From: a virus
IMG/VR virus record: IMGVR_UViG_3300042332_001411
Location: 6,786-70,785 of that record
Length of the DNA: 64,000 bases
Reading direction: 5' to 3' (one strand)
In this document: piece by piece, positions 49,280-60,601 of the stretch
How positions within the stretch are numbered: the stretch's first letter is position 1
How the letters are laid out: every line of letters begins with the position of its first letter
Notes under the pieces: model-generated
What the model saw: the letters and a program-made list of their open reading frames with translations, nothing else
Told to the model about the DNA's origin: nothing
The model's database searches: none
Program-made: the position numbers and the translations under genes

Positions 49280-50004
49280 CAAATTATCAACCGTATCAAA
49301 ACTATTTTGATGTTTTAGGAAAAAATAAAGACAACATTGTTATAATTAATAATTTTATTAGCCATGAAGATTTGCTAGCCATTAATGATTATCTTGATTT
49401 GTACGAAAATAATGATGAATTTATGGGCGGAAAAGATTTAAGAGAAGATCAAGTTGAAAAAGAAAATCCAAAAGTTGCAAAAATTCTTGATAAATATGAG
49501 AAAAAAATATATGAAAAAGTAAATGAACTTTTTACTGAAAAATATAAAATTCCTATTATTAGAAAGCCAGTTAACTCTACGCATTTTGTTAAATGGATCC
49601 CTGGGATGAATTCTAAATTGCACTCTGATTGTGAAAAACCAGATGGGACTCCAGCATATGCTGCAGATTTTTATACTTATAATGTAGCAGTTTTGATGTA
49701 TCCAAATGACAAATACACTGGGGGAGAAATTACTTTTCCAGACTATGATTTAGTTTTAAAGCCAAAGCCAGGAGATATGATTATGTTTCCAGGAAACAAT
49801 GCATACAAGCATACAGTTCAAAGAGTAGAAAGTGGAACCAGGTACACCATGCCATCTTGGTATGCTTTTGATGTTAATGAGGCGCCTAAAGAGTCTAAGA
49901 AATATTCATACTTAGATTCTGTTCAACTTTGGGAAGGTCTGCCAGATTTTGACAAAATAGACCCAGTTGGTATTGATGTTAGGAAGTATAATGAAGGATC
50001 ATAA
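49276..50004 (+). CDS. Prolyl-4-hydroxylase-like oxygenase, family B
   Basis: HSD; YPNDKYTGGEITFP; HTV...GTRY. Confidence 0.85.
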   Translation: MTNYQPYQNYFDVLGKNKDNIVIINNFISHEDLLAINDYLDLYENNDEFMGGKDLREDQVEKENPKVAKILDKYEKKIYEKVNELFTEKYKIPIIRKPVNSTHFVKWIPGMNSKLHSDCEKPDGTPAYAADFYTYNVAVLMYPNDKYTGGEITFPDYDLVLKPKPGDMIMFPGNNAYKHTVQRVESGTRYTMPSWYAFDVNEAPKESKKYSYLDSVQLWEGLPDFDKIDPVGIDVRKYNEGS

Positions 50005-50284
50005 ATGGAAAGATTCTGCTTTATGTTTAGGGCAACCAACTAGTGTTTTTTTTGAGCAATACGAAGAAGGCAGTATAGATTATAAAAATGGGATAGATCA
50101 ATTTTGTTTAAATTGTCCAGTATTAAAAAAATGCTTTGCAGTCGGAGTATCTGGTAAAGAATATGGCCTTTGGGGAGGGATATATTTAGAAGAAGGGGAG
50201 CCGTCAAAAGAGTTTAATTCTCATAAAACAAAAGAAAAGTGGTCAACTCATTGGAAAGCATTAACAATGGATAAAGAATTATAA
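49991..50284 (+). CDS. whiB: WhiB-family transcription factor
   Basis: W...ALC...FF...C..CPV...C...GLWGG. Confidence 0.9.
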   Translation: MKDHKWKDSALCLGQPTSVFFEQYEEGSIDYKNGIDQFCLNCPVLKKCFAVGVSGKEYGLWGGIYLEEGEPSKEFNSHKTKEKWSTHWKALTMDKEL

Positions 50285-50516: not shown

Positions 50517-50690
50517 ATGATAGATTTACGGGGCACACCTACACATGTATGCGTATGTGGCTCTAAGGTTTGGAATATTAAGGCAATGTTTGAAGATGGT
50601 GCAATTGCCTTATATTTCTTAGATATGAAGTGTGCTGATTGCGGATCTTTGGCAACAGCACCTACTGAAATTGACGGAGGAGAGTTATAA
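50517..50690 (+). CDS. Small zinc-ribbon protein (not in the ORF track)
   Basis: MIDLRGTPTHVCVCGS...CADCGS; 57 aa. Confidence 0.65.
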   Translation: MIDLRGTPTHVCVCGSKVWNIKAMFEDGAIALYFLDMKCADCGSLATAPTEIDGGEL

Positions 50691-50691
50691 G

Positions 50692-51387
50692 ATGTCAAGA
50701 ATGCCAGTGCCTCCTGCATCTTCTGATGACTTTGTTTTGTTAGATGATCAAATAGACTGTGCTTATTTAATTGATCAAGACAAACTTAATCTTGCAAAAA
50801 TATATTCGTCTAGAGAAGAATACATCAAGACCCTTCCTTTTGGTTTAAACTATATGGAGGTAGGGGTAGCCTGGGGATATTATTCCGAATTGGTTGCTAA
50901 ACAAAAAGCCCCAGAATGCATACACCTGGTAGATTATTTTGATCAAGATTTAAAGTGTTGGTCTTGGAGAAAATTTGGAGAGTGTAAATGTTCGGGGCAA
51001 AAACATGAACTATTATATACTCCAGAAACGCATGAAGCCTATATAGTTGATAAATTCAGTACATACAACAACGTAAAAACGTTTAAAGGGGATAGTAAAA
51101 AAATATTAAAAAATATTTTAAATAAATATGACTATATATATTTAGATATAACTAACGATAGAAAAGACATAAGGCCCACCCTTCAAGCAGCCTCCTTATT
51201 AGTTAAAGATGGAGGAATTATTGGCCTAAATGATTATTTAATTTATGATGGAATAATTGAAGACAAGCCATACGCAACATTTCAGGTAGTAAATGAGTTT
51301 TTACGCTATAATAGTAATTGGAGCGTTGATGCAATAGCATTACATGCTCTAGGATTTTATGATATATATATAAAAAAGGACTGCTAA
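50692..51387 (+). CDS. Class I SAM methyltransferase (Methyltransf_24-like)
   Basis: MEVGVAWG; YDYIYLD; GGIIGLNDY. Confidence 0.8.
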   Translation: MSRMPVPPASSDDFVLLDDQIDCAYLIDQDKLNLAKIYSSREEYIKTLPFGLNYMEVGVAWGYYSELVAKQKAPECIHLVDYFDQDLKCWSWRKFGECKCSGQKHELLYTPETHEAYIVDKFSTYNNVKTFKGDSKKILKNILNKYDYIYLDITNDRKDIRPTLQAASLLVKDGGIIGLNDYLIYDGIIEDKPYATFQVVNEFLRYNSNWSVDAIALHALGFYDIYIKKDC

Positions 51388-52307
51388 TGACAAATAACTA
51401 TAACTATATTCCAAAACATGTTTCGTCTTCTCCTGTTACAGAAGACTACATATTTACTGACCCAAATAATATTTTTATGGATTTATTTAAGAATGAATTT
51501 GATACAACATGGATGAGAAATACCGAACAAAAAACATTTAGCATAATTGAACCAGAAAAAGAAACTATTGATGATGGTTTGGTTATTTATAATTATAACA
51601 AACAGAAGTTTAGATCTGATGACTTTACTAATGTTCATAATGGAAAGCATATTCTTTTTTCTGGATGCTCAGAAACAGAGGGTGTTGGCGGAAACATAGA
51701 AGACGCTTGGTCTAAAGTCTTGTATGATCTTTTGTCTAAAGAAGAAAAATGTTCTGGATTTTTTAATTTGTCAAGATCTGGCTGGGGCTGGTCAAGAATT
51801 ATAACAAATGCTTTAGTTTATTTTAAAAAGTATGGATACCCTGATACCTATTTTATTATGTTGCCAAATCATCAAAGAAAATTTCTTTATTCTAGTCATG
51901 GACATCCGTGGGCATATTGGCAAAAATACCCAAAAGTCTACATGATGAAAAATCCTGACAAAGCAAACGATCCCGACTTTGCAACAGAGCCTAAAGAACA
52001 TCTAGAAGATTTTGTTTATTTTTTGATTTCTTGGAAAATTTTTAGCGAATTGTGTGTACAAAAAAATATCAATTTAATATTTTCTTCGTGGGATTCTATA
52101 GATAAAGAAAGCATATCTAGGCTAGAAGGCTTTGACAATTTTGTTAATATTCAAAACAATAAGATTGAAGATTATGCCAAGACATATTATAAAGATCATG
52201 AAATTAAAAAAGATGATTATAGCAAAAGAGATCATCATGCTGGAAGGATTCTTCATCATTTTTGGGCTGATGAATTCTATAAAAAATATCAGCAATTAGG
52301 AAAATAA
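51387..52307 (+). CDS. SGNH-hydrolase-like protein (paralog of 25185)
   Basis: FRSDDF...ILFSGCSETEG; RDHH near the C-terminus. Confidence 0.6.
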   Translation: MTNNYNYIPKHVSSSPVTEDYIFTDPNNIFMDLFKNEFDTTWMRNTEQKTFSIIEPEKETIDDGLVIYNYNKQKFRSDDFTNVHNGKHILFSGCSETEGVGGNIEDAWSKVLYDLLSKEEKCSGFFNLSRSGWGWSRIITNALVYFKKYGYPDTYFIMLPNHQRKFLYSSHGHPWAYWQKYPKVYMMKNPDKANDPDFATEPKEHLEDFVYFLISWKIFSELCVQKNINLIFSSWDSIDKESISRLEGFDNFVNIQNNKIEDYAKTYYKDHEIKKDDYSKRDHHAGRILHHFWADEFYKKYQQLGK

Positions 52308-52438: not shown

Positions 52439-53431
52439 ATGACAAAAATAAAAACAATCCTAACTGTTTTATTAATTTCTATTGCTTCTCCAGCACATTC
52501 TATGGAGAATGCTCCTGATGCGCTAAATGATGGGAGAACAGTCCCTCTTATAATTCAAGGTAGTGGCAAAAATTGTACTGGATTTTTATATTCTGAAAAA
52601 ATTGTTTTAACTGCAGGGCATTGTATATTTGACCGATACACACAAAATTTATGGAAACAGCAGTATATAGGAAAACCAGGTATGCCTTACGTGCCAAACA
52701 GCAATGAGTACGAATTATTTTCTATAGAAAAGACTTTTTCAAATTGGAAAATTAAAACAGAAAAAGATTATTCAGATACCGATGATTTTGCTGTTTTGGT
52801 TTTAAAAAATAAAATTTCAGTTCCTGGAAAAGCATATATTGCTACAAAAGAACAGGTGGACAATTATATAAAAAACAAAGCCATGGTCACAACAATTGGC
52901 TATGGTATGCAAAGCAAAGAACATAAACAAAACGATCTTACAAAGCCAAAATATGCACAATTTCCATTAATTTCAAATGAAAGAGTTAACGCTGTAGTAT
53001 CCGAAGTTTATAATTATAGTGGGGTTGGTCACTATGGAATGAAAATTCACGTACTTCAAGTTCCTGGAGGGCCAAGCACCTGTTCTGGTGATTCAGGGTC
53101 GCCATTTTATATAAAAGATGGAGAAACCTTTATCTATTTAGGGCCATTGTCTTGGGGTTTTGGTGGAATTCCAAATTGCAGTGGTAACGGATGGAAGACA
53201 AATGAAATGAATATGGGGTCAGTAGCAGCATACGATTATTTATCTTTAATTAAAGAAGCAGAAGATTATGTTGCCAAGCAAAATGTGGTAATTATACCAA
53301 CACCAACCAACTCTCCATTAACCAAAAAATCAATTATTAAAGTAACAATAAAATGTTATAAAGGAAAAGAAATAAAGAAAATATATGGAATTAATCCTAA
53401 ATGTCCAAAAGGATATAAAGTAAAGGTTTAG
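52439..53431 (+). CDS. Secreted trypsin-like serine protease
   Basis: Signal peptide; LTAGHC; DFAVL; CSGDSGSP; C-terminal TIKCYKGK...PKCPKGY tail. Confidence 0.9.
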   Translation: MTKIKTILTVLLISIASPAHSMENAPDALNDGRTVPLIIQGSGKNCTGFLYSEKIVLTAGHCIFDRYTQNLWKQQYIGKPGMPYVPNSNEYELFSIEKTFSNWKIKTEKDYSDTDDFAVLVLKNKISVPGKAYIATKEQVDNYIKNKAMVTTIGYGMQSKEHKQNDLTKPKYAQFPLISNERVNAVVSEVYNYSGVGHYGMKIHVLQVPGGPSTCSGDSGSPFYIKDGETFIYLGPLSWGFGGIPNCSGNGWKTNEMNMGSVAAYDYLSLIKEAEDYVAKQNVVIIPTPTNSPLTKKSIIKVTIKCYKGKEIKKIYGINPKCPKGYKVKV

Positions 53432-53834: not shown

Positions 53835-54410
53835 ATGTATAAGATAATTAATAATTTTTTTAATGAAGAAGAAATAAATATTATATTAAATAATATAAAA
53901 GAAACAGAAGATTCAGGGGCTGGACAAATATATAGGCAGACAGGAAGAAAATTAATTGGTTTAGATAGTTTAAATAGAGATATTATTGATAAAGTTGAAG
54001 CCTACGTTAACAGCACATATAATAAAAAATTAATAGTAAAAGATATTGGTTTTATGAGGTTTAAAAAAGAATATGGAACCCCAAAACTATTGCCACATAA
54101 AGATGACTATGCTTGCGAAGTAGTATTTGATTATCAAGTTAAAACTAATAAAAAATGGGATTTGTTTATTAAGGGAGAAAGAATAGAGTTATTAGATAAT
54201 GATGCAGTTTGCTTTGAGGGAGAGGAAGAAGCGCACTGGAGAGAAAAGGTGTTATTTGGTGATGATGAGTTTGTAGAAATGATTTGTTTTAATTGTATTG
54301 GCGAAAATCATTGGAGACATTCGTCTACAACAAATCCTTTAAATGAAATTGAGCAAGCAAAAAAAACAAAACAAACTTTTAAAGATTGGTCTCATATATA
54401 TTCTGGTTGA
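53835..54410 (+). CDS. 2OG-Fe(II) oxygenase-like protein, family A
   Basis: PHKD..FDYQ..WDL..HWR. Confidence 0.75.
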   Translation: MYKIINNFFNEEEINIILNNIKETEDSGAGQIYRQTGRKLIGLDSLNRDIIDKVEAYVNSTYNKKLIVKDIGFMRFKKEYGTPKLLPHKDDYACEVVFDYQVKTNKKWDLFIKGERIELLDNDAVCFEGEEEAHWREKVLFGDDEFVEMICFNCIGENHWRHSSTTNPLNEIEQAKKTKQTFKDWSHIYSG

Positions 54411-55741
54411 TCTGGATATCCAGAAATTTTTAAAAATACATTAATTGCATATCTGAAATCGCTTGCTGGCATTATCCCATGCCTGTTGTACCAATTTCCT
54501 GGAAAAGACACCAACATTCCTGGCTCTGGTTTAATTTTAAAATCATGCTCAGGAAAATATAATTCTCCGCCATCGTAATCATCATTTAAATATAGCAAAT
54601 TTGATATGTGCCCACTCCAGTCATATTTAATATTATTGTCAAAATCAGTCAATATATCGCTATGAATATTAGTTGCAAAGTAAGGCAATCTACCATTTAA
54701 ATAATCACTTTTAATGTTATACCTGTTTGCATCATCATCGTGTTCTAATTTTAATTTAAATAAATCTTCTGAAATATTTTTAATTTTTTCTTTATATTTT
54801 AATATTAAATTTTTAGCGATAGGGATATTTTTTTCATTAATTAGATCTTCTCTATAAAAAAAATTACATAATTCATTTATGACGGCAAGATCATCTTTAG
54901 GCATAAAATTTTTTACAATTTTAATTGTATCCTTATTGGTTCCCAAAAAAATAGTTGCTTTATCTTTTATTTTAGTCTCACCTCTAATTGAGTCAGTAAA
55001 TATTTTTTTAGGATCTGCTGTAGCAATATTTTCTACTTTAAAATATTCACTCATTTTTGGTTTTTGCAAATTCATAGACTCTGATTCTATAATTTCATTT
55101 TTAAAATCACTAAATCTAGTCCATAACGAAAGGGTAAACCTTGTTGCCCCAGTAGTTTGTGTTACTCCATGAAGAAAATGTAAATTTCCAGGGAAACATA
55201 CAAACATTCCTGGCTCAGGAACAATTTCGACTCCTTGATCTGGAAAATACAAAACTCCCCCATCGTAATCTTTGTTTAAATAACAAAGAATAGACAGATG
55301 CCCACTCCACAAAAATGGCCAAACTTTTTCTTGCTCGGCGAATAAATTGGGCTGATCATAAACTTCTTCTTGATGATAATCAATGATATCTGTATGTGGC
55401 TCAAGGTAAGATCCTTCTGGATGAATAAATAAATCTAAGGGTCTATCTTTATTCAACTTTAATCCATATAGTTCTTCTGCTTTATTCCTTAGCATATTTT
55501 CATATTTTTTAAATTTTTCTTGCAATACGGGATCAGTTGCATTAACAATAAAATGGTGTGTTTTATTTTTTTCAACTTTTGACATTATTTTTCCAAAATT
55601 TACAAATTCATCGATATCAGATTGCGGAATAAAATTTTTAATTATTTTTATTGTGTCTGGGCCAGTACCAATTATTTTACTAATGTTATCTATTTTTTTT
55701 GTTGGCACATTGACTGGCGTAATTTGACCATTTTTGTTCAT
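54392..55741 (-). CDS. Two-domain prolyl-4-hydroxylase-like oxygenase, family B
   Basis: Two HxD...WSGH...YLN.DYDGG..FP...HG...R domains; start at 55741 inferred from the leaderless -10. Confidence 0.85.
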   Translation of the reverse strand: MNKNGQITPVNVPTKKIDNISKIIGTGPDTIKIIKNFIPQSDIDEFVNFGKIMSKVEKNKTHHFIVNATDPVLQEKFKKYENMLRNKAEELYGLKLNKDRPLDLFIHPEGSYLEPHTDIIDYHQEEVYDQPNLFAEQEKVWPFLWSGHLSILCYLNKDYDGGVLYFPDQGVEIVPEPGMFVCFPGNLHFLHGVTQTTGATRFTLSLWTRFSDFKNEIIESESMNLQKPKMSEYFKVENIATADPKKIFTDSIRGETKIKDKATIFLGTNKDTIKIVKNFMPKDDLAVINELCNFFYREDLINEKNIPIAKNLILKYKEKIKNISEDLFKLKLEHDDDANRYNIKSDYLNGRLPYFATNIHSDILTDFDNNIKYDWSGHISNLLYLNDDYDGGELYFPEHDFKIKPEPGMLVSFPGNWYNRHGIMPASDFRYAINVFLKISGYPDQPEYI

Positions 55742-55779
55742 ATACATATTGTATCATGACCATATGTTATAATAATTTT

Positions 55780-56385
55780 ATGGCAAATTTTTTAATTCCA
55801 CAAGATAGTCTAAAATATGCAAAACTGTATAGTAGTCGTGATGAGTTTATAAAAACGTTGCCGAAAGGGCTAACATTTTTAGAGGCTGGAGTTTTGGCTG
55901 GAGATTTTTCTGCCAAGGTAATAGAGGTTTGCTCTCCGTCTAAATCTATCTTAATTGACCCATACGAGTCTCTTGATTGGAATGCTGCCGAATATCATGA
56001 AAGCAGGTGGCATGGGCCAGAGCAGCATTTTAATTTTGTAAAACAAAGATTTTCTAATATAACAACAGTAAAACTTTTTCAAGGAAAATATGAAGATTTT
56101 GCTTTAAACAATAAAGATACTTTTGATTTTTTATATATGGATTATGATACTTCGTATACCTCAATACAACATCAAATAGAAATATCAAAATCTAGGTTAA
56201 GTATAGATGGAATTTTAGGCTTTAATGATTACAATATTTATGAGAATGATACAAATACAGGAAAAAAACAAGGGACAGTTCATGCAATTAATGATTTTCT
56301 TTATAAAAATTCTGATTGGTACGTTTACGCTTTTGCCTTAAATGACAACCTTACCTCAGACATTTATTTAAAAAAATTAACTTAA
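55780..56385 (+). CDS. Class I SAM methyltransferase (paralog of 50692)
   Basis: LEAGVLAG; FDFLYMD; GILGFNDY; shares AK.YSSR.E.IKTLP.GL with 50692. Confidence 0.8.
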   Translation: MANFLIPQDSLKYAKLYSSRDEFIKTLPKGLTFLEAGVLAGDFSAKVIEVCSPSKSILIDPYESLDWNAAEYHESRWHGPEQHFNFVKQRFSNITTVKLFQGKYEDFALNNKDTFDFLYMDYDTSYTSIQHQIEISKSRLSIDGILGFNDYNIYENDTNTGKKQGTVHAINDFLYKNSDWYVYAFALNDNLTSDIYLKKLT

Positions 56386-57300
56386 ACCTTTAATTTCACT
56401 TATAATTCTATTTGCTATCTTATCGTACTCAATTTCTAAAATAGCGTTGTTCATGTCTATTGTATGAACTTTAATTTTGCCAATCTCCTCAAAAAGAATT
56501 TTTGTTATTTTTTTATGATTTTCTTCTGGTAGCCTATCAGATGATGTAGGTATAATAAGAAAAGACATTTTAAATGGCACGTCAAAATCATAATCTAATA
56601 ATTGATTTTTTGCATTTGTTATAAAGTCATTTATAATCAATTCGTTAATTGTTGTGGCATTAATTACTATTGTAATAAAAGTGCTATTTGGAAAAATATC
56701 AATAACTTTGTCTAAAAATTCTAATATAAAAGTTTTTGAGTCTTGGTGATCTGTTTTAATGTAAGGAAAAAGACAAGGCATTCCATGATCAAGTAAATCT
56801 AACAAAAAAATATCTTGATCTTTTTTGCTTGCTGGAATTAGTTCTTTATATATAAATTCACTAGATGCAAAGGCAGAATGGCTAAGAATTAAAGAAGAAA
56901 TTGATGGTCCTGGGCAAACAGTATAAGGAATTTTATTTTTTAATGCCAAAGAAACTAACATTGTCCCTGGGTCTGTGGTTCCAGGCATTCCTTCGGCAGA
57001 ACAATATACAACATTTTTGTTACTATCAATAGTTTCTTTTATTATTTTAATTACTTCGTCATCTGATATACCTTGCCAACTGTGCTTTTTCATAATTTCG
57101 GTTCGAAGATCTACAGTCGGATTGGGCCATTGATAAATTTTTTTATTATCTATAATGTTTAATTGTTTTAATTTATTTTTAAAGAATCCTTTATCTTCTA
57201 CAATAAAGACATCTGTTTCTTTAATTATATCTAAAGCCCTAACAGTAATATCGTTAACATTTCCTAAATCAACACCGACAAAAATTAATTGTCCACTCAT
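56377..57300 (-). CDS. RsmI-like tetrapyrrole-methylase-family SAM methyltransferase
   Basis: LIFVGVDLGN..DIT.RAL; VED; SAEGMPG..DPG; PGPS. Confidence 0.8.
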   Translation of the reverse strand: MSGQLIFVGVDLGNVNDITVRALDIIKETDVFIVEDKGFFKNKLKQLNIIDNKKIYQWPNPTVDLRTEIMKKHSWQGISDDEVIKIIKETIDSNKNVVYCSAEGMPGTTDPGTMLVSLALKNKIPYTVCPGPSISSLILSHSAFASSEFIYKELIPASKKDQDIFLLDLLDHGMPCLFPYIKTDHQDSKTFILEFLDKVIDIFPNSTFITIVINATTINELIINDFITNAKNQLLDYDFDVPFKMSFLIIPTSSDRLPEENHKKITKILFEEIGKIKVHTIDMNNAILEIEYDKIANRIISEIKGLS

Positions 57301-57485
57301 TATTCTTTTTCGTTATCTTTTTTATTTTGTAAAATATTTGCATAGGTCATCCCTCTTATTTTTTCATAAATACTTTTTTGTTGTCTTTGAAATTTAGATA
57401 ATTGAACCTTATTTGACAATCTTTTCTTGTTTTTATTTGATCTTTTAACTTTAGATTTAGAAACTTTATCGTTACTTTTTTTCAT
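57300..57485 (-). CDS. Small basic protein
   Basis: Lys/Arg-rich; coupled to the RsmI-like gene. Confidence 0.5.
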   Translation of the reverse strand: MKKSNDKVSKSKVKRSNKNKKRLSNKVQLSKFQRQQKSIYEKIRGMTYANILQNKKDNEKE

Positions 57486-57494
57486 TTATACCCC

Positions 57495-57617
57495 TTATTC
57501 ATCTTCAGATGGTTTATTTGATACCCAAACTCCGTCTTGATCTATGCCTTTTGTCATATAAAAATAGCAAGAAATAAAACCAATAAAAAAACTAAACAAT
57601 ACCAATAATGCTGTCAT
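57495..57617 (-). CDS. Small single-TM protein
   Basis: SD AAAGGAG before ATG 57617; MTALLVLFSFFIGF. Confidence 0.55.
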   Translation of the reverse strand: MTALLVLFSFFIGFISCYFYMTKGIDQDGVWVSNKPSEDE

Positions 57618-57678
57618 TTTTTTCTCCTTTGTATCAGTATACCAAAAAAACGGGGATAAGTCAAGATATACTATATAA

Positions 57679-58002
57679 ATGGAAAGAGCCTTACTATACC
57701 TAATATACTCTCCATCTCTTAAAGCCTTTAAGGTTGGGATATCCAATCTATCTAATCGTAGATATTCTCAACACAGAGTAAAGGGCTGGATGATTATTCG
57801 TTATTGGTATTTTGAAAATAGGGATAGTGCTAGGCTTGTAGAACAGGAGGTTTTAAAGGTTTTTCGTAATAGATTCCCAGAGACTCACTTAAAGAAAGAA
57901 GATATGCCACAACATGGATATACCGAGGCCTTTAGTTCCAAGTCTATCTCATCACGTAAAGTAATAAATATCATTAATAAAACTATTAAAAACAAACTTT
58001 AA
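57679..58002 (+). CDS. GIY-YIG/T5orf172-like nuclease-domain protein
   Basis: LYLI...KVGIS...R...E...GYTEAF. Confidence 0.7.
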   Translation: MERALLYLIYSPSLKAFKVGISNLSNRRYSQHRVKGWMIIRYWYFENRDSARLVEQEVLKVFRNRFPETHLKKEDMPQHGYTEAFSSKSISSRKVINIINKTIKNKL

Positions 58003-58015
58003 TTTTTAAAATTTT

Positions 58016-58507
58016 TTACCTATGTCTCAAATGACCAGGCTCTGCGTAATGACAAAAAAGAACAGCAACATGAGCGTTTGGTTTTTCTAATCTTTTTCTT
58101 GAGTGACTTTGCTCTTCTCCCCAAAAAAATAATGCTTGATTTTCTTTTAAAGTGTAAGGAGTATCTTCAACATATATATCCCATGGCTCAGTCTGATATA
58201 AAGGTATATCTAGGGTATGAGTTCCTCCATAAGAATCTTTGTGTTTGGTGACTATTGCGTTAGTCTCATAATGTGCAAAAAATCCTATGGTCGGCAAAAT
58301 TTTGTCATTGCCTAAAGTTTTTCTAACAATGTCTAAACTTGAATATAAAAAATCTTTTAAAATTGGCAGATTCATTGAGTCATTAATATATCTACCTTCT
58401 CTATTTTGCCAGTGATAGTTTTTGTAGTTTGCCTTAAAATAAGTTTGTAGTTTTAGGAATTCGTCTTCTTTTATTAAATTATCTATGATTTTGGGCGTTC
58501 TATCCAT
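58016..58507 (-). CDS. 2OG-Fe(II) oxygenase-like protein (family A, divergent)
   Basis: KHKD...WDIYVE...L.ENQA..F.GE...H.R...LFCHY. Confidence 0.75.
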   Translation of the reverse strand: MDRTPKIIDNLIKEDEFLKLQTYFKANYKNYHWQNREGRYINDSMNLPILKDFLYSSLDIVRKTLGNDKILPTIGFFAHYETNAIVTKHKDSYGGTHTLDIPLYQTEPWDIYVEDTPYTLKENQALFFWGEEQSHSRKRLEKPNAHVAVLFCHYAEPGHLRHR

Positions 58508-58600
58508 ACTTTAAGTTTATCATAATAGTTTTAAATTTCGGCGAAAAATAGAAAGAGTAAACTAATCTATGCACCTAGCGGTGCACTATCGGTTAATATT

Positions 58601-58747
58601 CTAATATGCCTGCATTAGGAATTCACTATCCCAAAGGGCACACAAAGACTCATTCCCAATATCATCAAAGTAATAGCGATTTTTTTCGGGGCTATAAGTC
58701 CAACCCTTCCATATATCACCATCATCCCAAGTAAGGTTTGTATCCAT
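58601..58747 (-). CDS. Small Trp/Asp-rich protein (not in the ORF track)
   Basis: MDTNLTWDDGDIWKGWTY...; 48 aa. Confidence 0.5.
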   Translation of the reverse strand: MDTNLTWDDGDIWKGWTYSPEKNRYYFDDIGNESLCALWDSEFLMQAY

Positions 58748-58751
58748 TAGT

Positions 58752-58925
58752 TCATGCATTATCTATTTTCCTAACAGTAATTGGACCATTAAGTGATTGC
58801 CAGACTTTTTCTTCATCTCTCATTTGTTTGCGCTTTCTTTTCATATAGCCTTTTGTGTACTCCATAGCCCCAGTTGAGGTACCAGTTTTACCAGAAGACA
58901 GTAAACTGCTTTTCTTTTTAGCCAT
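58752..58925 (-). CDS. Small basic protein
   Basis: SD GAAAGG before ATG 58925. Confidence 0.55.
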   Translation of the reverse strand: MAKKKSSLLSSGKTGTSTGAMEYTKGYMKRKRKQMRDEEKVWQSLNGPITVRKIDNA

Positions 58926-58943
58926 ATAACCTTTCAATTTTAA

Positions 58944-59010
58944 GGACAGTTTTAAGACTTATCCAGGTCCTATCCTGATCTTTTCCTTTATAGACGTTGT
59001 CAGGCTCTAT
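58944..59010 (-). ncRNA. Candidate tandem-pseudoknot leader RNA
   Basis: Stems ATAGA/TCTAT with CCTGA/TCAGG, then GAC/GTC with GGATA/TGTCC; lies downstream of a consensus promoter. Confidence 0.5.
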
Positions 59011-59040
59011 TTGTTCGTCTTGTGGGGTATTGCACTATTA

Positions 59041-59069
59041 ATTATACATAAGGCTAAAAGGTTTGTCAA
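59041..59069 (-). promoter_or_regulatory. Consensus sigma70 promoter
   Basis: TTGACA-N17-TATAAT on the minus strand. Confidence 0.75.
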
Positions 59070-59094
59070 CCCTATAATGATATAATATGAGGGT

Positions 59095-59220
59095 ATGAGT
59101 GATAATCTTTTAAAACAAATAGCAGCAATAATAGCCCCACATCTAAGGTATAAACACAAAGACTCAAGGTCTTTAGAGATAGCAGAAAAAATACTAGAAG
59201 AAATAAACAATAAGAACTGA
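59095..59220 (+). CDS. Small hypothetical protein (41 aa, not in the ORF track)
   Basis: Follows TGATATAAT and GAGG; MSDNLLKQIAAIIAPHL... Confidence 0.45.
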   Translation: MSDNLLKQIAAIIAPHLRYKHKDSRSLEIAEKILEEINNKN

Positions 59221-59232
59221 TATACTGGTTTG

Positions 59233-59982
59233 ATGTTATATGTGGTAGGTCTTCCAGTGGGTAATTACGCAGACATGCCACCCAGAAACCTTCAAATGAT
59301 TAAAGATGCCAAACACCTTGTAGTTGAGAATACTGAACAATTTGAGCAATTTTTGCACACTTTTAAAATAGATAAAAGTGATTGTAACATTCTGTATCTT
59401 ATTACTCAAAACAAAAATATGGCTCAAGATCCAGCAGAAAAAGAAATAACGGCTCAGGTGCTGAAATATTTAAAAATGGGAGAAGATGTTTATTTAATTT
59501 GTGATGACGGGATGCCAGGGATTGCAGATCCAGGAGCAAGGCTAATAAAAAGATGCGGTGAACACGGGATAAAGGTGTCTGCCACTCCTGGTCCAAGTGC
59601 AGTCATAGCAGCCGTAACAGTTGCCGCTATGGGACATAATTTTTCCTTTCATTCTTTTTTTGCAAAAGATAAAATTTTTAGAAAGGGTCAATTATTAAGT
59701 TTAAAGGATAACCCCATGGCTCATGTATTTATGCTTAGAAATGCCATATCTCCAAAAGAATTTTTACCAGAAATTGAAGAGGTATTTCCTGAAATTATAG
59801 AAATCTGGGGGGATAGACAAGCAACCCTTTGTATCAATTTAACCATGGATAATGAGACTGTCGTCAGAGGAAAGATATCTTACTTATTAGAATACATACT
59901 CAAACATAGACAAACTAAAGATAAAATAATGATCGTAATAGAAGGAAAAGATCAAAACGGTTTTTATCCTCGCAGCAGGTAG
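59233..59982 (+). CDS. RsmI-like SAM methyltransferase (second paralog)
   Basis: LYVVGLPVGN..D...R; DDGMPGIADPG; PGPSAV.AA; LT...E.V.RG; leaderless TATACT-N6-ATG. Confidence 0.85.
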   Translation: MLYVVGLPVGNYADMPPRNLQMIKDAKHLVVENTEQFEQFLHTFKIDKSDCNILYLITQNKNMAQDPAEKEITAQVLKYLKMGEDVYLICDDGMPGIADPGARLIKRCGEHGIKVSATPGPSAVIAAVTVAAMGHNFSFHSFFAKDKIFRKGQLLSLKDNPMAHVFMLRNAISPKEFLPEIEEVFPEIIEIWGDRQATLCINLTMDNETVVRGKISYLLEYILKHRQTKDKIMIVIEGKDQNGFYPRSR

Positions 59983-60601
59983 TGGCACGAGGTGGGACAA
60001 CTATAGAGGCGTTCCAAAGCATAGAGTCGTAATTGAAGGTGAAGTCCTGGTTGAACGGACATATCGGCAATTTTCTAAGTATGCAGATAAGGTCATAATC
60101 GTCGCTAATGAGGAACAAGGCTTTGCCCAGACTTATATCCCCCCTGAAAATAAAGCATGGAGAGATATAGCCAAGTTCTACTCAAGTAGGGATATCTGGA
60201 CAGAGGGTAAGAATATTCTGGTTTTTGCAGATGTGTACTTTACCGATGAAGCAGTTGAACGAATTATGAATGATCCTTATGGCCTATCATTTTATCTACG
60301 TAGCAAACCTTCTCACCTTACAAAGAAGTTATGGAAGGAGATATGGGGTATAGGGTTTGAAGGTTTTTCTATTCCTATCTTAGAGTCTACGATATTAAAA
60401 ATCATAGAATCCAAAGAGAATTACAGTGCTGGTGGTTGGCGTTTGTATGACCAATTAACCCAAGATAAACAAAAATTTCACTCCGTAGAGATAGATGATT
60501 GGACTGAAGACTTTGATTTTCCTGCAGATATTGACACTTGGGAAGCAAGGAGAAAGAGGTTTTTAGCACAAATAAATGTTACTGATGATAGCAAGATCTA
60601 A
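59951..60601 (+). CDS. Sugar/choline-phosphate nucleotidyltransferase (LicC/MobA-like) with a non-canonical ATC start
   Basis: The frame of ORF 60233 extends upstream to (I)KTVFILAAGSGTRW...PKH; C-terminal DFDFPAD. Confidence 0.75.
   Translation: MKTVFILAAGSGTRWDNYRGVPKHRVVIEGEVLVERTYRQFSKYADKVIIVANEEQGFAQTYIPPENKAWRDIAKFYSSRDIWTEGKNILVFADVYFTDEAVERIMNDPYGLSFYLRSKPSHLTKKLWKEIWGIGFEGFSIPILESTILKIIESKENYSAGGWRLYDQLTQDKQKFHSVEIDDWTEDFDFPADIDTWEARRKRFLAQINVTDDSKI

What the first reader, a model, noticed from the sequence alone, without database searches (positions are those of the whole stretch)
56377..59982. Two RsmI-like (16S rRNA C1402 2'-O-methyltransferase-like) paralogs in one phage
Seen: two divergent ORFs on opposite strands (56377-57300 and 59233-59982), each with the RsmI motif set (VG.xxGN..D, G.PG..DPG, PGPS). 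Known: RsmI is normally a single-copy bacterial gene, and m4Cm1402 in the P site affects start-codon selection and readthrough in E. coli. Inference: the phage may remodel host ribosomes, for example in favour of its many leaderless or non-AUG mRNAs, or protect rRNA from host anti-phage nucleases. Alternatively the enzymes act on new substrates.
Basis: partly seen in the sequence, partly recalled or inferred. Interest (0 to 1): 0.8.

Follow-up and report, generated by a model that had tools for sequence, protein, structure and literature searches.

The report
Two retargeted RsmI-like phage methyltransferases
An uncultured phage, probably of actinobacteria, carries two very different genes descended from the bacterial ribosome-methylating enzyme RsmI; both keep its catalytic core but have lost the parts RsmI uses to grip the ribosome, so they probably methylate something other than 16S rRNA.

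Summary
ORF A (56377-57300, minus strand, 307 aa) and ORF B (59230/59233-59982, plus strand, 250 aa) are the only two TP_methylase (PF00590) genes in this 70.8-kb virus record. RsmI is their nearest known family by sequence and, for B, by fold.

Neither is an RsmI orthologue:
- Both score far below the RsmI equivalog cut-off.
- Each forms a clade apart from cellular RsmI.
- Both are acidic, unlike basic cellular RsmI.
- Both lack RsmI's C-terminal domain.
- Both have replaced residues invariant in 79 cellular RsmI hits (T19, R47, R174, R196, K200). They keep the SAM/Mg2+ catalytic residues N23, E44 and D100 (PMC13037946).

Context points away from translation. The genes lie in an island of 2OG oxygenases, Methyltransf_24 methyltransferases and, in relatives, carbamoyltransferases. 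B overlaps a MobA/IspD-like nucleotidyltransferase gene.

New here: A is a fusion of an A-type methylase with a small protein that is free-standing in related phages.

Best reading: retargeted O-methyltransferases, substrate unknown. Host-ribosome remodelling at C1402 is unlikely, about 0.1. This scan reached the same verdict before on other DNA (33 notes, at least 24 genomes). I found no paper describing it.

The parts
56530..57300 (-). Paralog A, TP_methylase (RsmI-like) domain, residues 1-257
   Evidence: PF00590 scores 58.7 bits and TIGR00096 66.5 bits against a cut-off of 167.9. Seven of the 8 database relatives stop here, at 256-264 aa. N23, E44, D45 and D100 equivalents are kept in 9 of 9. 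T19, P20, R47, R174, R196 and K200 are kept in 0 of 9.
56377..56529 (-). Paralog A, fused C-terminal module (residues 258-307 plus stop)
   Evidence: It matches a free-standing ORF of 51-63 aa found at the syntenic position in L009, L011, L012, L013 and L014, and upstream of MT24-MT24-TPM in L015. The only longer protein that contains it is the 307-aa P0121 cluster. It has no Pfam family. dN/dS for the tail is 0.30-0.44.
59230..59982 (+). Paralog B, RsmI-like TP_methylase; probable start at ATG 59233; last 10 codons come from loss of the ancestral stop codon
   Evidence: PF00590 scores 83 bits and TIGR00096 85.1 bits against a cut-off of 167.9. The clade of 37 database relatives has 42-93% identity. 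The AlphaFold model has pLDDT 84 and its best Foldseek hits are RsmI. The stop TAA in L009 is CAA in the window.
59951..60601 (+). MobA/IspD-like nucleotidyltransferase gene overlapping the 3' end of B; apparent ATC start
   Evidence: The frame is open from 59942 and carries a G-x-G-T-R motif. PF12804 NTP_transf_3 scores 30.6 bits against a cut-off of 27. The start is ATG in L014, ATT in L009 and ATC in the window.
57300..57485 (-). Small, very basic ORF (61 aa); its TAA stop overlaps the ATG of A by one base
   Evidence: Searches show the junction TAATG. It belongs to family f17, found in 9 of 23 sources and always next to the small module or A. It has no Pfam family.
55756..56385 (+). Methyltransf_24 class I methyltransferase, convergent with A and overlapping its 3' end by 9 nt
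   Evidence: PF13578 scores 30.8 bits against a cut-off of 26.3. It belongs to family 2, with 61 members in 19 of 23 sources. A member lies directly upstream of the TP_methylase, on the same strand, in L015, L017, L022, L024 and L025.
54392..55747 (-). Two-domain P4H-like 2OG-Fe(II) oxygenase
   Evidence: PF13640 scores 67 bits over two stretches. It belongs to family 0, with 65 members in 23 of 23 sources.
58016..58507 (-). phrog_2954-family protein (family f15), one of 4 paralogs found in the window's last 20 kb
   Evidence: phrog_2954 E 6.4e-11. It has no Pfam family. Family f15 has 22 members in 9 of 23 sources.
59041..59069 (-). Perfect sigma-70 consensus promoter (TTGACA-17-TATAAT) facing the leftward genes that end in A
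   Evidence: It matches 12 of 12 positions. This is a consensus match only. A terminator-like hairpin at 58586-58569 lies between it and A.

Best explanation
A and B are descendants of the bacterial 16S rRNA 2'-O-methyltransferase RsmI, which has the class III, TP_methylase fold. Phages have retargeted them.

Both keep the SAM pocket and the acidic residues that in RsmI hold the Mg2+ ion positioning the acceptor hydroxyl. They are therefore most likely active, metal-dependent O-methyltransferases.

The surface that RsmI uses to recognise the 30S subunit and unwind helix 44 has been rebuilt, with different residues that are themselves conserved. The C-terminal ribosome anchor is gone. Their substrate is therefore not C1402 of 16S rRNA.

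From the conserved gene neighbourhood, the most likely substrate is a hydroxyl group on a sugar-type molecule: a nucleotide-activated sugar, or a glycan on a protein or the envelope. That molecule would be built or decorated by the surrounding island of oxygenases, class I methyltransferases, carbamoyltransferases and a nucleotidyltransferase. This last step is inference. I give about 0.35 to the sugar/glycan substrate and about 0.65 to the general statement 'retargeted away from C1402'.

A and B are old, separate lineages rather than a recent duplication. A has been inserted between a small basic ORF and a small conserved ORF, and is fused in frame to the latter.
For: **Shown: nearest family is RsmI.**
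- all place RsmI first.

**Shown: catalytic residues are kept.**
- E44 is kept in 38 of 38 B-clade and 9 of 9 A-clade proteins.
- D100 is kept in 38 of 38 and 9 of 9.
- N23 is kept in 36 of 38 and 9 of 9.
- D92 is kept in 38 of 38 B-clade proteins.
- Their roles come from PMC13037946: E44A is almost inactive and D100A loses SAM binding.

**Shown: rRNA-contact residues are replaced.** The 79 cellular hits have T19, P20, N23, E44, D45, R47, D100 and K200 in 79 of 79, R174 in 76 and R196 in 74.
- Clade B keeps T19 in 0 of 38, D45 in 0, E170 in 0, R196 in 0, R47 in 3, R174 in 3 and K200 in 11.
- Clade A keeps T19, P20, R47, R174, R196 and K200 in 0 of 9.
- In B the replacements are themselves conserved and often reverse the charge: R174 to E in 34 of 38, K148 to D in 27, E170 to L in 37, D137 to H in 36.

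**Shown: no CTD.** A tail of at least 39 residues after reference position 243 occurs in 67 of 79 cellular hits and in 0 of 38 B-clade proteins.

**Shown: charge.** The pI is 5.1-6.2 in clade A and has a median of 5.6 in clade B, against a median of 8.7 in 83 cellular hits.

**Shown: separate clades.** SH-aLRT support is 99 for cellular RsmI, 99 for B and 100 for A.

**Shown: purifying selection.** dN/dS is 0.21-0.30.

**Shown: context.**
- The TP_methylase gene lies among 2OG oxygenases (23 of 23 sources) and MT24 methyltransferases (19 of 23).
- An NodU/CmcH-type carbamoyltransferase lies next to it in L017, L020, L022 and L024.
- A weak GT2-like gene lies in the same operon in L026-L029.
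- B is overlapped or directly followed by an NTP_transf_3 gene in the window, L009/L011 and L014.
Against: - No substrate was tested. Everything about the acceptor is inference from residues and neighbours.
- Twelve of the 79 cellular hits also lack a long C-terminal tail. Absence of the CTD alone therefore does not exclude rRNA methylation.
- The kept triad positions a ribose 2'-OH in RsmI, so an RNA or nucleotide acceptor remains quite possible.
- The island is a hypervariable accessory region. Adjacency there is weaker evidence than a tight operon.
  - In L012 an opposite-strand gene separates B from the nucleotidyltransferase gene.
  - L013 lacks the nucleotidyltransferase gene.
- Many loci are near-copies of each other (L009/L011, L028/L029, L030/L031), so the locus counts overstate independence.
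- The Foldseek TM-scores to RsmI are low, about 0.41, although the E-values are strong.
- The model of A is poor, with pLDDT 60.
- The residue mapping for A depends on an alignment at roughly 25% identity.
Confidence: 0.62

Rival explanations
1. They are still RNA ribose 2'-O-methyltransferases, but aimed at a different RNA: another rRNA position, a host or phage tRNA, or phage transcripts. The purpose could be to tune translation or to protect RNA from host nucleases.
For: The Mg2+/acceptor-hydroxyl triad that in RsmI positions a ribose 2'-OH is conserved (PMC13037946). Every characterised close relative is an RNA enzyme. The phage encodes two tRNAs. A very basic 61-aa ORF is translationally coupled to A and could supply RNA binding.
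Against: Both clades are acidic, and basic RNA-contact positions are changed to acidic ones: R174 to E, K148 to D, and R47 to E or D. None of the neighbours I identified has an RNA-processing or translation function. The tRNA genes lie about 17 kb away.
Confidence: 0.2
2. They are functional RsmI enzymes that 2'-O-methylate C1402 of host 16S rRNA and so retune initiation or fidelity during infection.
For: RsmI is the top hit in NCBIfam, in PDB sequences and by fold. The catalytic residues are intact. Some cellular RsmI-type hits are also short (12 of 79).
Against: - Scores are less than half of the equivalog cut-off.
- T19 is replaced by bulkier L/M or V/I. In E. coli T19Y blocks activity.
- K200, R196 and R174, which are needed to unwind h44, are replaced (PMC13037946).
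- The CTD is missing, and the deltaCTD enzyme is virtually inactive.
- The clades are distinct from cellular RsmI.
- The host would already carry its own rsmI. This is general knowledge and was not tested here.
Confidence: 0.1
3. A and B work together as a heterodimer that splits the catalytic and auxiliary protomer roles of the RsmI homodimer. The fused small module on A would replace the CTD.
For: RsmI acts as an asymmetric dimer with a catalytic and an auxiliary protomer (PMC13037946). A and B are divergently arranged 1.9 kb apart, and this arrangement is kept in the near relative G011. A carries an extra C-terminal module.
Against: Twelve of the 15 related virus records searched carry one copy only, including all four that are at least 90% complete. 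So B works without A. The small module is not homologous to the CTD by any search I ran. No interaction was tested between A and B.
Confidence: 0.05
4. They are SAM-binding proteins that do not methylate, for example SAM sinks that blunt host SAM-dependent defence.
For: The SAM-pocket residues are conserved while the original substrate surface is lost.
Against: E44 is dispensable for SAM binding but essential for catalysis in RsmI, and it is invariant in both clades. The remodelled cleft residues are strongly conserved, which argues for a specific acceptor.
Confidence: 0.03

Closest known systems
RsmI, 16S rRNA (cytidine1402-2'-O)-methyltransferase (TIGR00096; PDB 5HW4, 9PZG, 3KWP)
   Same: Same TP_methylase class III fold with two domains. 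Best sequence and fold match. Same GxPxxxDPG and PGPS SAM-pocket motifs. Same acidic residues E44 and D100, plus D92 in B, which bind Mg2+ and SAM.
   Different: - Scores are 66-85 bits against a cut-off of 167.9.
- They form separate clades.
- They have no CTD.
- The invariant rRNA-contact residues T19, R47, E170, R174, R196 and K200 are replaced.
- They are acidic rather than basic.
- They are encoded by phages inside a tailoring-enzyme island.
- A is fused to an unrelated small module.
Short RsmI-like proteins of Bacteroidota type (PDB 1WYZ, 'putative SAM-dependent methyltransferase')
   Same: Similar length of about 225-245 aa without a long C-terminal domain. It is the third-best structural family for B, at E 2.4e-12.
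   Different: The short cellular hits in my set still carry the invariant T19, P20, N23, E44, D45, R47 and K200 (79 of 79). The phage clades do not.
Tetrapyrrole C-methyltransferases (CobA/NirE/CysG/CbiF) and diphthine synthase
   Same: Same superfamily, PF00590, and the same overall fold.
   Different: They are clearly more distant. Foldseek gives about 1e-10 to 1e-11 and about 1e-8, against 4e-18 for RsmI. The only NCBIfam trace is CobF at E 0.0028 for A. I saw no cobalamin or siroheme genes among the neighbours I scanned.
Earlier notes of this scan on other phages (e1-6046077, e1-5977990)
   Same: Same kind of gene, same verdict (retargeted RsmI-like methyltransferases in phages) and same type of neighbourhood.
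   Different: They concern other genomes. The fusion of A with a small free-standing protein, and the overlap of B with a nucleotidyltransferase gene that has an ATC or ATT start, are described here for this phage.

Membership tests
RsmI (TIGR00096 equivalog) | TP_methylase class III fold with the SAM-pocket motifs | tested here: met
   PF00590 scores 58.7 bits for A and 83.0 bits for B, against a cut-off of 27.8. The model of B has RsmI structures as its best hits, at E 4e-18.
RsmI (TIGR00096 equivalog) | Score at or above the curated equivalog cut-off | tested here: not met
   TIGR00096 scores 66.5 bits for A and 85.1 bits for B, against 167.9. PRK14994 scores 43 and 83.7, against 502.
RsmI (TIGR00096 equivalog) | Mg2+/SAM acidic residues E44, D92, D100 (PMC13037946) | tested here: met
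   E44 and D100 are kept in 38 of 38 B-clade and 9 of 9 A-clade proteins. D92 is kept in 38 of 38 B-clade proteins. In A it is A, S or G, with an invariant Glu at the next position. D92A is tolerated in E. coli.
RsmI (TIGR00096 equivalog) | Helix-44 unwinding residues T19, N23, F144/R174, R196/W202, K200 | tested here: not met
   The cellular hits have T19 in 79 of 79, R174 in 76, R196 in 74 and K200 in 79. Clade B has T19 in 0, R174 in 3, R196 in 0 and K200 in 11 of 38, although it keeps N23 in 36 and F144 in 38. Clade A has T19, R174, R196, K200 and F144 in 0 of 9 and N23 in 9 of 9.
RsmI (TIGR00096 equivalog) | E-D-T-R motif (D45, T46, R47) contacting C1400/G1401 | tested here: not met
   The cellular hits have D45 in 79, T46 in 78 and R47 in 79 of 79. 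Clade B has D45 in 0, T46 in 5 and R47 in 3 of 38. Clade A has D45 in 9 of 9 but T46 and R47 in 0 of 9.
RsmI (TIGR00096 equivalog) | C-terminal three-helix domain (last 42 aa) that binds h23b and is essential in E. coli | tested here: not met
   A tail of at least 39 aa after reference position 243 occurs in 67 of 79 cellular hits and in 0 of 38 B-clade proteins. Two of the 9 A-clade proteins have a 43-aa tail, but it is a different module that is free-standing in other phages. Caveat: 12 of the 79 cellular hits also lack the tail.
RsmI (TIGR00096 equivalog) | Branches within cellular RsmI in a tree | tested here: not met
   Cellular RsmI, clade B and clade A are three separate groups with SH-aLRT 99, 99 and 100. 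This was a quick LG+G4 tree of 97 rows with no outgroup.
RsmI (TIGR00096 equivalog) | Methylates the 2'-OH of C1402 on assembled 30S subunits, acting as a homodimer | not testable with these tools
   This needs biochemistry. Dimerisation was not tested.
Tetrapyrrole methylases (CobA/CysG/CbiF) and diphthine synthase | Closer sequence or fold affinity to these than to RsmI | tested here: not met
   Foldseek E is about 1e-10 to 1e-11 and about 1e-8 respectively, against 4e-18 for RsmI. NCBIfam shows only CobF at E 0.0028 for A.

The most novel reading that the evidence does not exclude
The phage RsmI-like clades are a new functional class of TP_methylase-fold enzymes: Mg2+-dependent O-methyltransferases that act on a non-RNA hydroxyl. 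The acceptor would be a nucleotide-activated sugar or a glycan. They would form part of a phage-encoded decoration pathway, together with P4H-like oxygenases, MT24 methyltransferases, carbamoyltransferases and a nucleotidyltransferase, that modifies virion or host-envelope molecules. That would be the first use of the RsmI scaffold outside RNA.
Probability: 0.3. Interest if true: 0.7.

Novelty: new variant of a known kind. Interest (0 to 1): 0.48.

Why it matters
RsmI has been regarded as a single-purpose, single-copy housekeeping enzyme. Here a scaffold built to pry open helix 44 of the ribosome has been taken over by a lineage of large aquatic phages, which probably infect actinobacteria. 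It has diversified into several clades, and its substrate cleft has been rebuilt while the chemistry was kept.

About 30 of the 149 best cluster representatives in a 1.84-billion-protein library show the same pattern.

Automatic annotation calls all of these proteins '16S rRNA C1402 methyltransferase' (source names). That is probably wrong, and it would mislead studies of phage 'auxiliary' translation genes.

Finding the true acceptor would define a new activity for class III methyltransferases. It could also explain what the large oxygenase and methyltransferase islands of these phages make.

Tried and rejected
**Gene-context look-ups.**
I therefore could not see the context of the 260-aa A-type genes on the contigs of about 113-117 kb (P0123, P0127), nor of the B-type genes P0009, P0025 and P0035.
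- A metagenome scan with the A alignment returned only one locus, apparently the same 8,347-nt contig already held as L031.

**Nucleotide search.** A megablast of the 5-kb region against 50,697 phage records found nothing.

**tBLASTn against phage records.** Both proteins gave only hits of at most 32.5% identity. Several are fragmentary records holding what looks like bacterial rsmI. I judged that from the enterobacterial RsmI read in L032; the other records I did not inspect.

**PHROGs.** There is no family for A or B.

**Structure of A.** The model has pLDDT 60 and pTM 0.49, so I did not run a fold search on it.

**Complex prediction.** I tested whether the free-standing small protein binds the B-type methylase of the same phage (L012), using alignments A5 and A4. 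The answer was 'no answer', with scores 0.00 and 0.00. This is neither support nor evidence against binding.

**Solved structures and the atlas.**
- The nucleotidyltransferase gave only IspD at E 0.63.
- The MT24 neighbour had no hit.
- The atlas search with the small protein gave only unnamed clusters at 0.79-0.80, which is chance level.

**Rfam.** At gathering thresholds it found only the two tRNAs.

**Literature.** I ran four searches:
- 'RsmI' + 'phage'.
- 'RsmI' + 'crystal structure' + 'C1402'.
- 'tetrapyrrole methylase' + 'phage'.
- Actinophage, whiB, metagenom, methyltransferase, freshwater.

I also ran term look-ups in PMC10914622 and PMC6802176. None of these turned up a description of phage RsmI-like genes. 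Of PMC13037946 I read the abstract and outline, passages and parts 2 and 3 of its text. I could not see its SI Appendix (Table S2, Fig. S5, residue conservation). The conservation figures I give are my own, from 79 database hits.

**Rejected idea.** I first took the short 51-63-aa 'TPM-family' ORFs in L009-L015 for decayed remnants of A. They instead match A's C-terminal extension.

**Rows dropped.**
- For the tree I removed every second cellular hit, 39 of 79, for speed.
- In one search, cellular hits shorter than 225 aa were left out, 4 of 83.

- The script picked the wrong frame. It was replaced.
- One search failed on wrong coordinates and was corrected.
- One search failed on a word with an underscore and was corrected.
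- asked for a ticket too early.

Full report
**What is there.** The window is bases 6786-70785 of a 70,785-nt IMG/VR virus record that CheckV rates as 64% complete. Several features mark it as a phage:
- A large terminase, a DnaE-like DNA polymerase, a DnaB-like helicase and a tail protein.
- Two tRNA genes.
- A WhiB-family gene at about window 50006-50194, scoring 40.1 bits against a cut-off of 23.6.

Its polymerase and terminase are about 53% identical to those of Streptomyces phages of about 121-134 kb. An actinobacterial host is therefore likely, although the 28-41% G+C is far from Streptomyces.

Relatives of B start at the second Met, which is ATG 59233. Both pass Pfam's TP_methylase threshold. 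They are the only two such genes in the record and share 27% identity.

**Which family.** RsmI is the nearest known family by every measure:
- NCBIfam's RsmI models are the top hits for both proteins. The only other trace is CobF at E 0.0028 for A.
- E. coli RsmI (5hw4, 9pzg) is the best solved relative by sequence, at E 2.9e-18 for B and 4.2e-08 for A.
- An AlphaFold model of B (pLDDT 84, pTM 0.80) finds RsmI structures first, at E 4e-18 to 1e-16. The short Bacteroides protein 1wyz follows at 2e-12, tetrapyrrole methylases at about 1e-10 to 1e-11 and diphthine synthase at about 1e-8.
- TM-scores are only about 0.41. I take this, without proof, to reflect a different hinge angle between the two domains.

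**Why they are not RsmI orthologues.** The scores, 66.5 and 85.1 bits, are less than half the equivalog cut-off of 167.9.

The 2026 cryo-EM study of RsmI on the 30S subunit (PMC13037946) names the functional residues. I read its abstract, passages, and parts 2 and 3 of the text. I did not see its SI.
- E44, D92 and D100 hold a Mg2+ at the 2'-OH. E44A is nearly dead and D100A loses SAM binding.
- T19, P20 and N23, then F144 with R174, R196 with W202, and K200, unwind helix 44.
- The last 42 residues form a CTD whose deletion abolishes activity.

I mapped these positions in a MAFFT alignment, using an enterobacterial RsmI (L032:362-1225) for numbering.
- **79 cellular hits.** T19, P20, N23, E44, D45, R47, D100 and K200 are invariant. 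T46 is kept in 78, D92 in 76, F144 in 76, R174 in 76, R196 in 74 and E170 in 73.
- **Clade B (38 sequences, window included).**
  - E44, D92, D100 and F144 are kept in 38 of 38. P20 and N23 are kept in 36.
  - T19 is L or M, so it is kept in 0 of 38.
  - D45 is N or R (0 of 38). E170 is L in 37 of 38. R196 is Y or I (0 of 38).
  - R47 survives in 3, R174 in 3 (it is E in 34) and K200 in 11.
- **Clade A (9 sequences).**
  - N23, E44, D45 and D100 are kept in 9 of 9.
  - T19, P20, R47, F144, R174, R196 and K200 are kept in 0 of 9.
  - D92 is A, S or G, with an invariant Glu at the next position.
- **C-terminal tail.** A tail of at least 39 residues is present in 67 of 79 cellular hits and in 0 of 38 clade-B proteins.

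The replacements in B are themselves conserved and several reverse the charge. This looks like re-specification of the cleft rather than decay.

Three further results agree with that reading:
- Clade A has pI 5.1-6.2 and clade B a median of 5.6, against 8.7 for 83 cellular hits.
- In a quick ML tree of 97 rows, cellular RsmI, clade B and clade A are separate groups with SH-aLRT 99, 99 and 100. A sits on a long stem of 2.27. Thirty-nine cellular rows were dropped for speed. A is therefore not a recent duplicate of B.
- dN/dS of 0.21-0.30 shows that both genes are maintained.

**How widespread.** B has a tight clade of 37 database clusters. They share 42-93% identity, are 219-264 aa long and have E-values of at most 2.7e-43. 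The next hit follows a gap, at E 1.8e-23 and 32% identity.

A has only 8 relatives in the word-indexed database. An exhaustive profile search of 1.84 billion representatives found only 4 at E <= 1e-30, one of them clade A's own representative P0128.

Among the 149 best representatives of that search, 30 match at most 8 of 14 RsmI positions and are mostly 236-260 aa long. Ninety-four match at least 12. A wider radiation of divergent short RsmI-like proteins therefore exists.

Of 15 related virus records searched whole:
- 12 carry one TP_methylase, including all four that are at least 90% complete.
- 2 carry two. G011 has the same divergent A/B arrangement, with B cut by the contig end. G012 has its copies 18 kb apart.
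- 1 gave no match. It holds only the 3' half of B at its end.

L025 also has a second, very divergent copy.

This scan has flagged such genes before: 33 notes in at least 24 genomes. Two follow-ups reached the same 'retargeted' verdict. I reached mine before reading them.

**Neighbourhood.** I clustered 705 ORFs from the window's last 20 kb and from 22 loci. Many of these loci are near-copies of one another.
- P4H-like 2OG-Fe(II) oxygenases occur in 23 of 23 sources.
- Methyltransf_24-like methyltransferases occur in 19 of 23.
- In the more distant phages L015, L017, L022, L024 and L025, an MT24 gene lies directly upstream of the TP_methylase on the same strand.
- In L017, L020, L022 and L024 a NodU/CmcH-type carbamoyltransferase follows it (Carbam_trans_N and _C).
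- In L026-L029 the TP_methylase heads a same-strand run that includes a weak GT2-like protein.

In the window, A is convergent with an MT24 gene, and their 3' ends overlap by 9 nt. A's ATG shares one base with the TAA stop of a very basic 61-aa ORF.

B's 3' end is overlapped by a 216-aa MobA/IspD-like nucleotidyltransferase gene (PF12804, 30.6 bits against a cut-off of 27).
- Its start codon is ATG in L014, ATT in L009 and ATC in the window.
- B's ancestral TAA stop is CAA here, which adds 10 residues to B.
- This gene is adjacent to or overlaps B in the window, L009/L011 and L014.
- It is separated from B by an opposite-strand gene in L012 and is absent from L013.

None of the neighbours I could name is a translation or RNA-processing factor.

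**A is a fusion.** Seven of the 8 relatives of A end at 256-264 aa. Only the window's protein and P0121 run to 307 aa.

The extra 47-50 residues match a free-standing ORF of 51-63 aa. That ORF occupies the same slot, between the MT24 gene and the small basic ORF, in L009, L011, L012, L013 and L014. In L015 it sits just upstream of MT24-MT24-TPM.

The only longer protein found to contain it is the P0121 cluster. The module has no Pfam family and evolves under constraint.

So an A-type methylase gene was inserted between two small conserved genes and fused in frame to the downstream one. The fusion is kept in L030 and L031, at 91-93% identity. It hints that the small protein works with TP_methylase-type enzymes, but I have no evidence of binding.

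**Mechanism proposed.**
- Shown: an RsmI-type fold, an intact SAM/Mg2+ site, and loss of the 30S-recognition determinants.
- Inferred: both are active, metal-dependent O-methyltransferases with a new acceptor.
- Inferred more weakly, from neighbours: the acceptor is a hydroxyl on a sugar-type molecule made or decorated by the island.

An RNA acceptor other than C1402 remains a serious rival, at about 0.2. The canonical C1402 reading is unlikely, at about 0.1.

**Verdict.** The 'RsmI-like' label is right as to descent and wrong as to probable function. This is a new variant of a known enzyme kind. It was not found in the literature I searched, but this scan has met it repeatedly on other DNA. 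Interest is moderate.

Noticed in passing
window 59942-60601 (+): The ORF listing shows only a 122-aa GTG ORF (60233-60601). The frame is open from 59942 and encodes a 216-aa MobA/IspD-like nucleotidyltransferase. Its start codon is ATG in L014, ATT in L009 and ATC (59951) in the window, so two lineages appear to use non-ATG/GTG/TTG starts.
   Followed up: partly
window 49967-50284 (+), match at about 50006-50194: A WhiB-family gene (PF02467, 40.1 bits). Together with terminase and polymerase about 53% identical to Streptomyces phages, it points to an actinobacterial host, despite a genome of about 28-41% G+C.
   Followed up: partly
window 57679-58002 (+): A T5orf172/GIY-YIG-like endonuclease-type ORF (phrog_681 E 1.4e-11; Pfam 18.4 bits, below the cut-off). 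It lies between A and B and partly overlaps an opposite-strand ORF. It is conserved in 12 of 23 sources.
   Followed up: no
window 52439-53431 (+): A trypsin-family serine protease gene (PF00089, 67.8 bits), conserved in 9 of 23 sources just upstream of the oxygenase and methyltransferase block.
   Followed up: no
window 50632-51387, 51387-52307, 55756-56385 (+): Three Methyltransf_24-like paralogs within 6 kb. The related loci hold 61 members of this family in total. Their acceptor is unknown.
   Followed up: no
window 59041-59069 (-): A perfect TTGACA-17-TATAAT promoter in the divergent region between B and the leftward genes. A terminator-like hairpin at 58586-58569 lies downstream of it, before A.
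   Followed up: no
L025 8476-9243 (-): A second, extremely divergent TP_methylase-like gene in a related phage (PF00590 only 19.1 bits; branch length 2.93 in the tree). It lies 3.4 kb from that phage's B-type copy.
   Followed up: partly
L015 12615-13028 (-) and relatives (family f26): An HSP20/alpha-crystallin small heat-shock gene recurs near the TP_methylase in several related phages.
   Followed up: no
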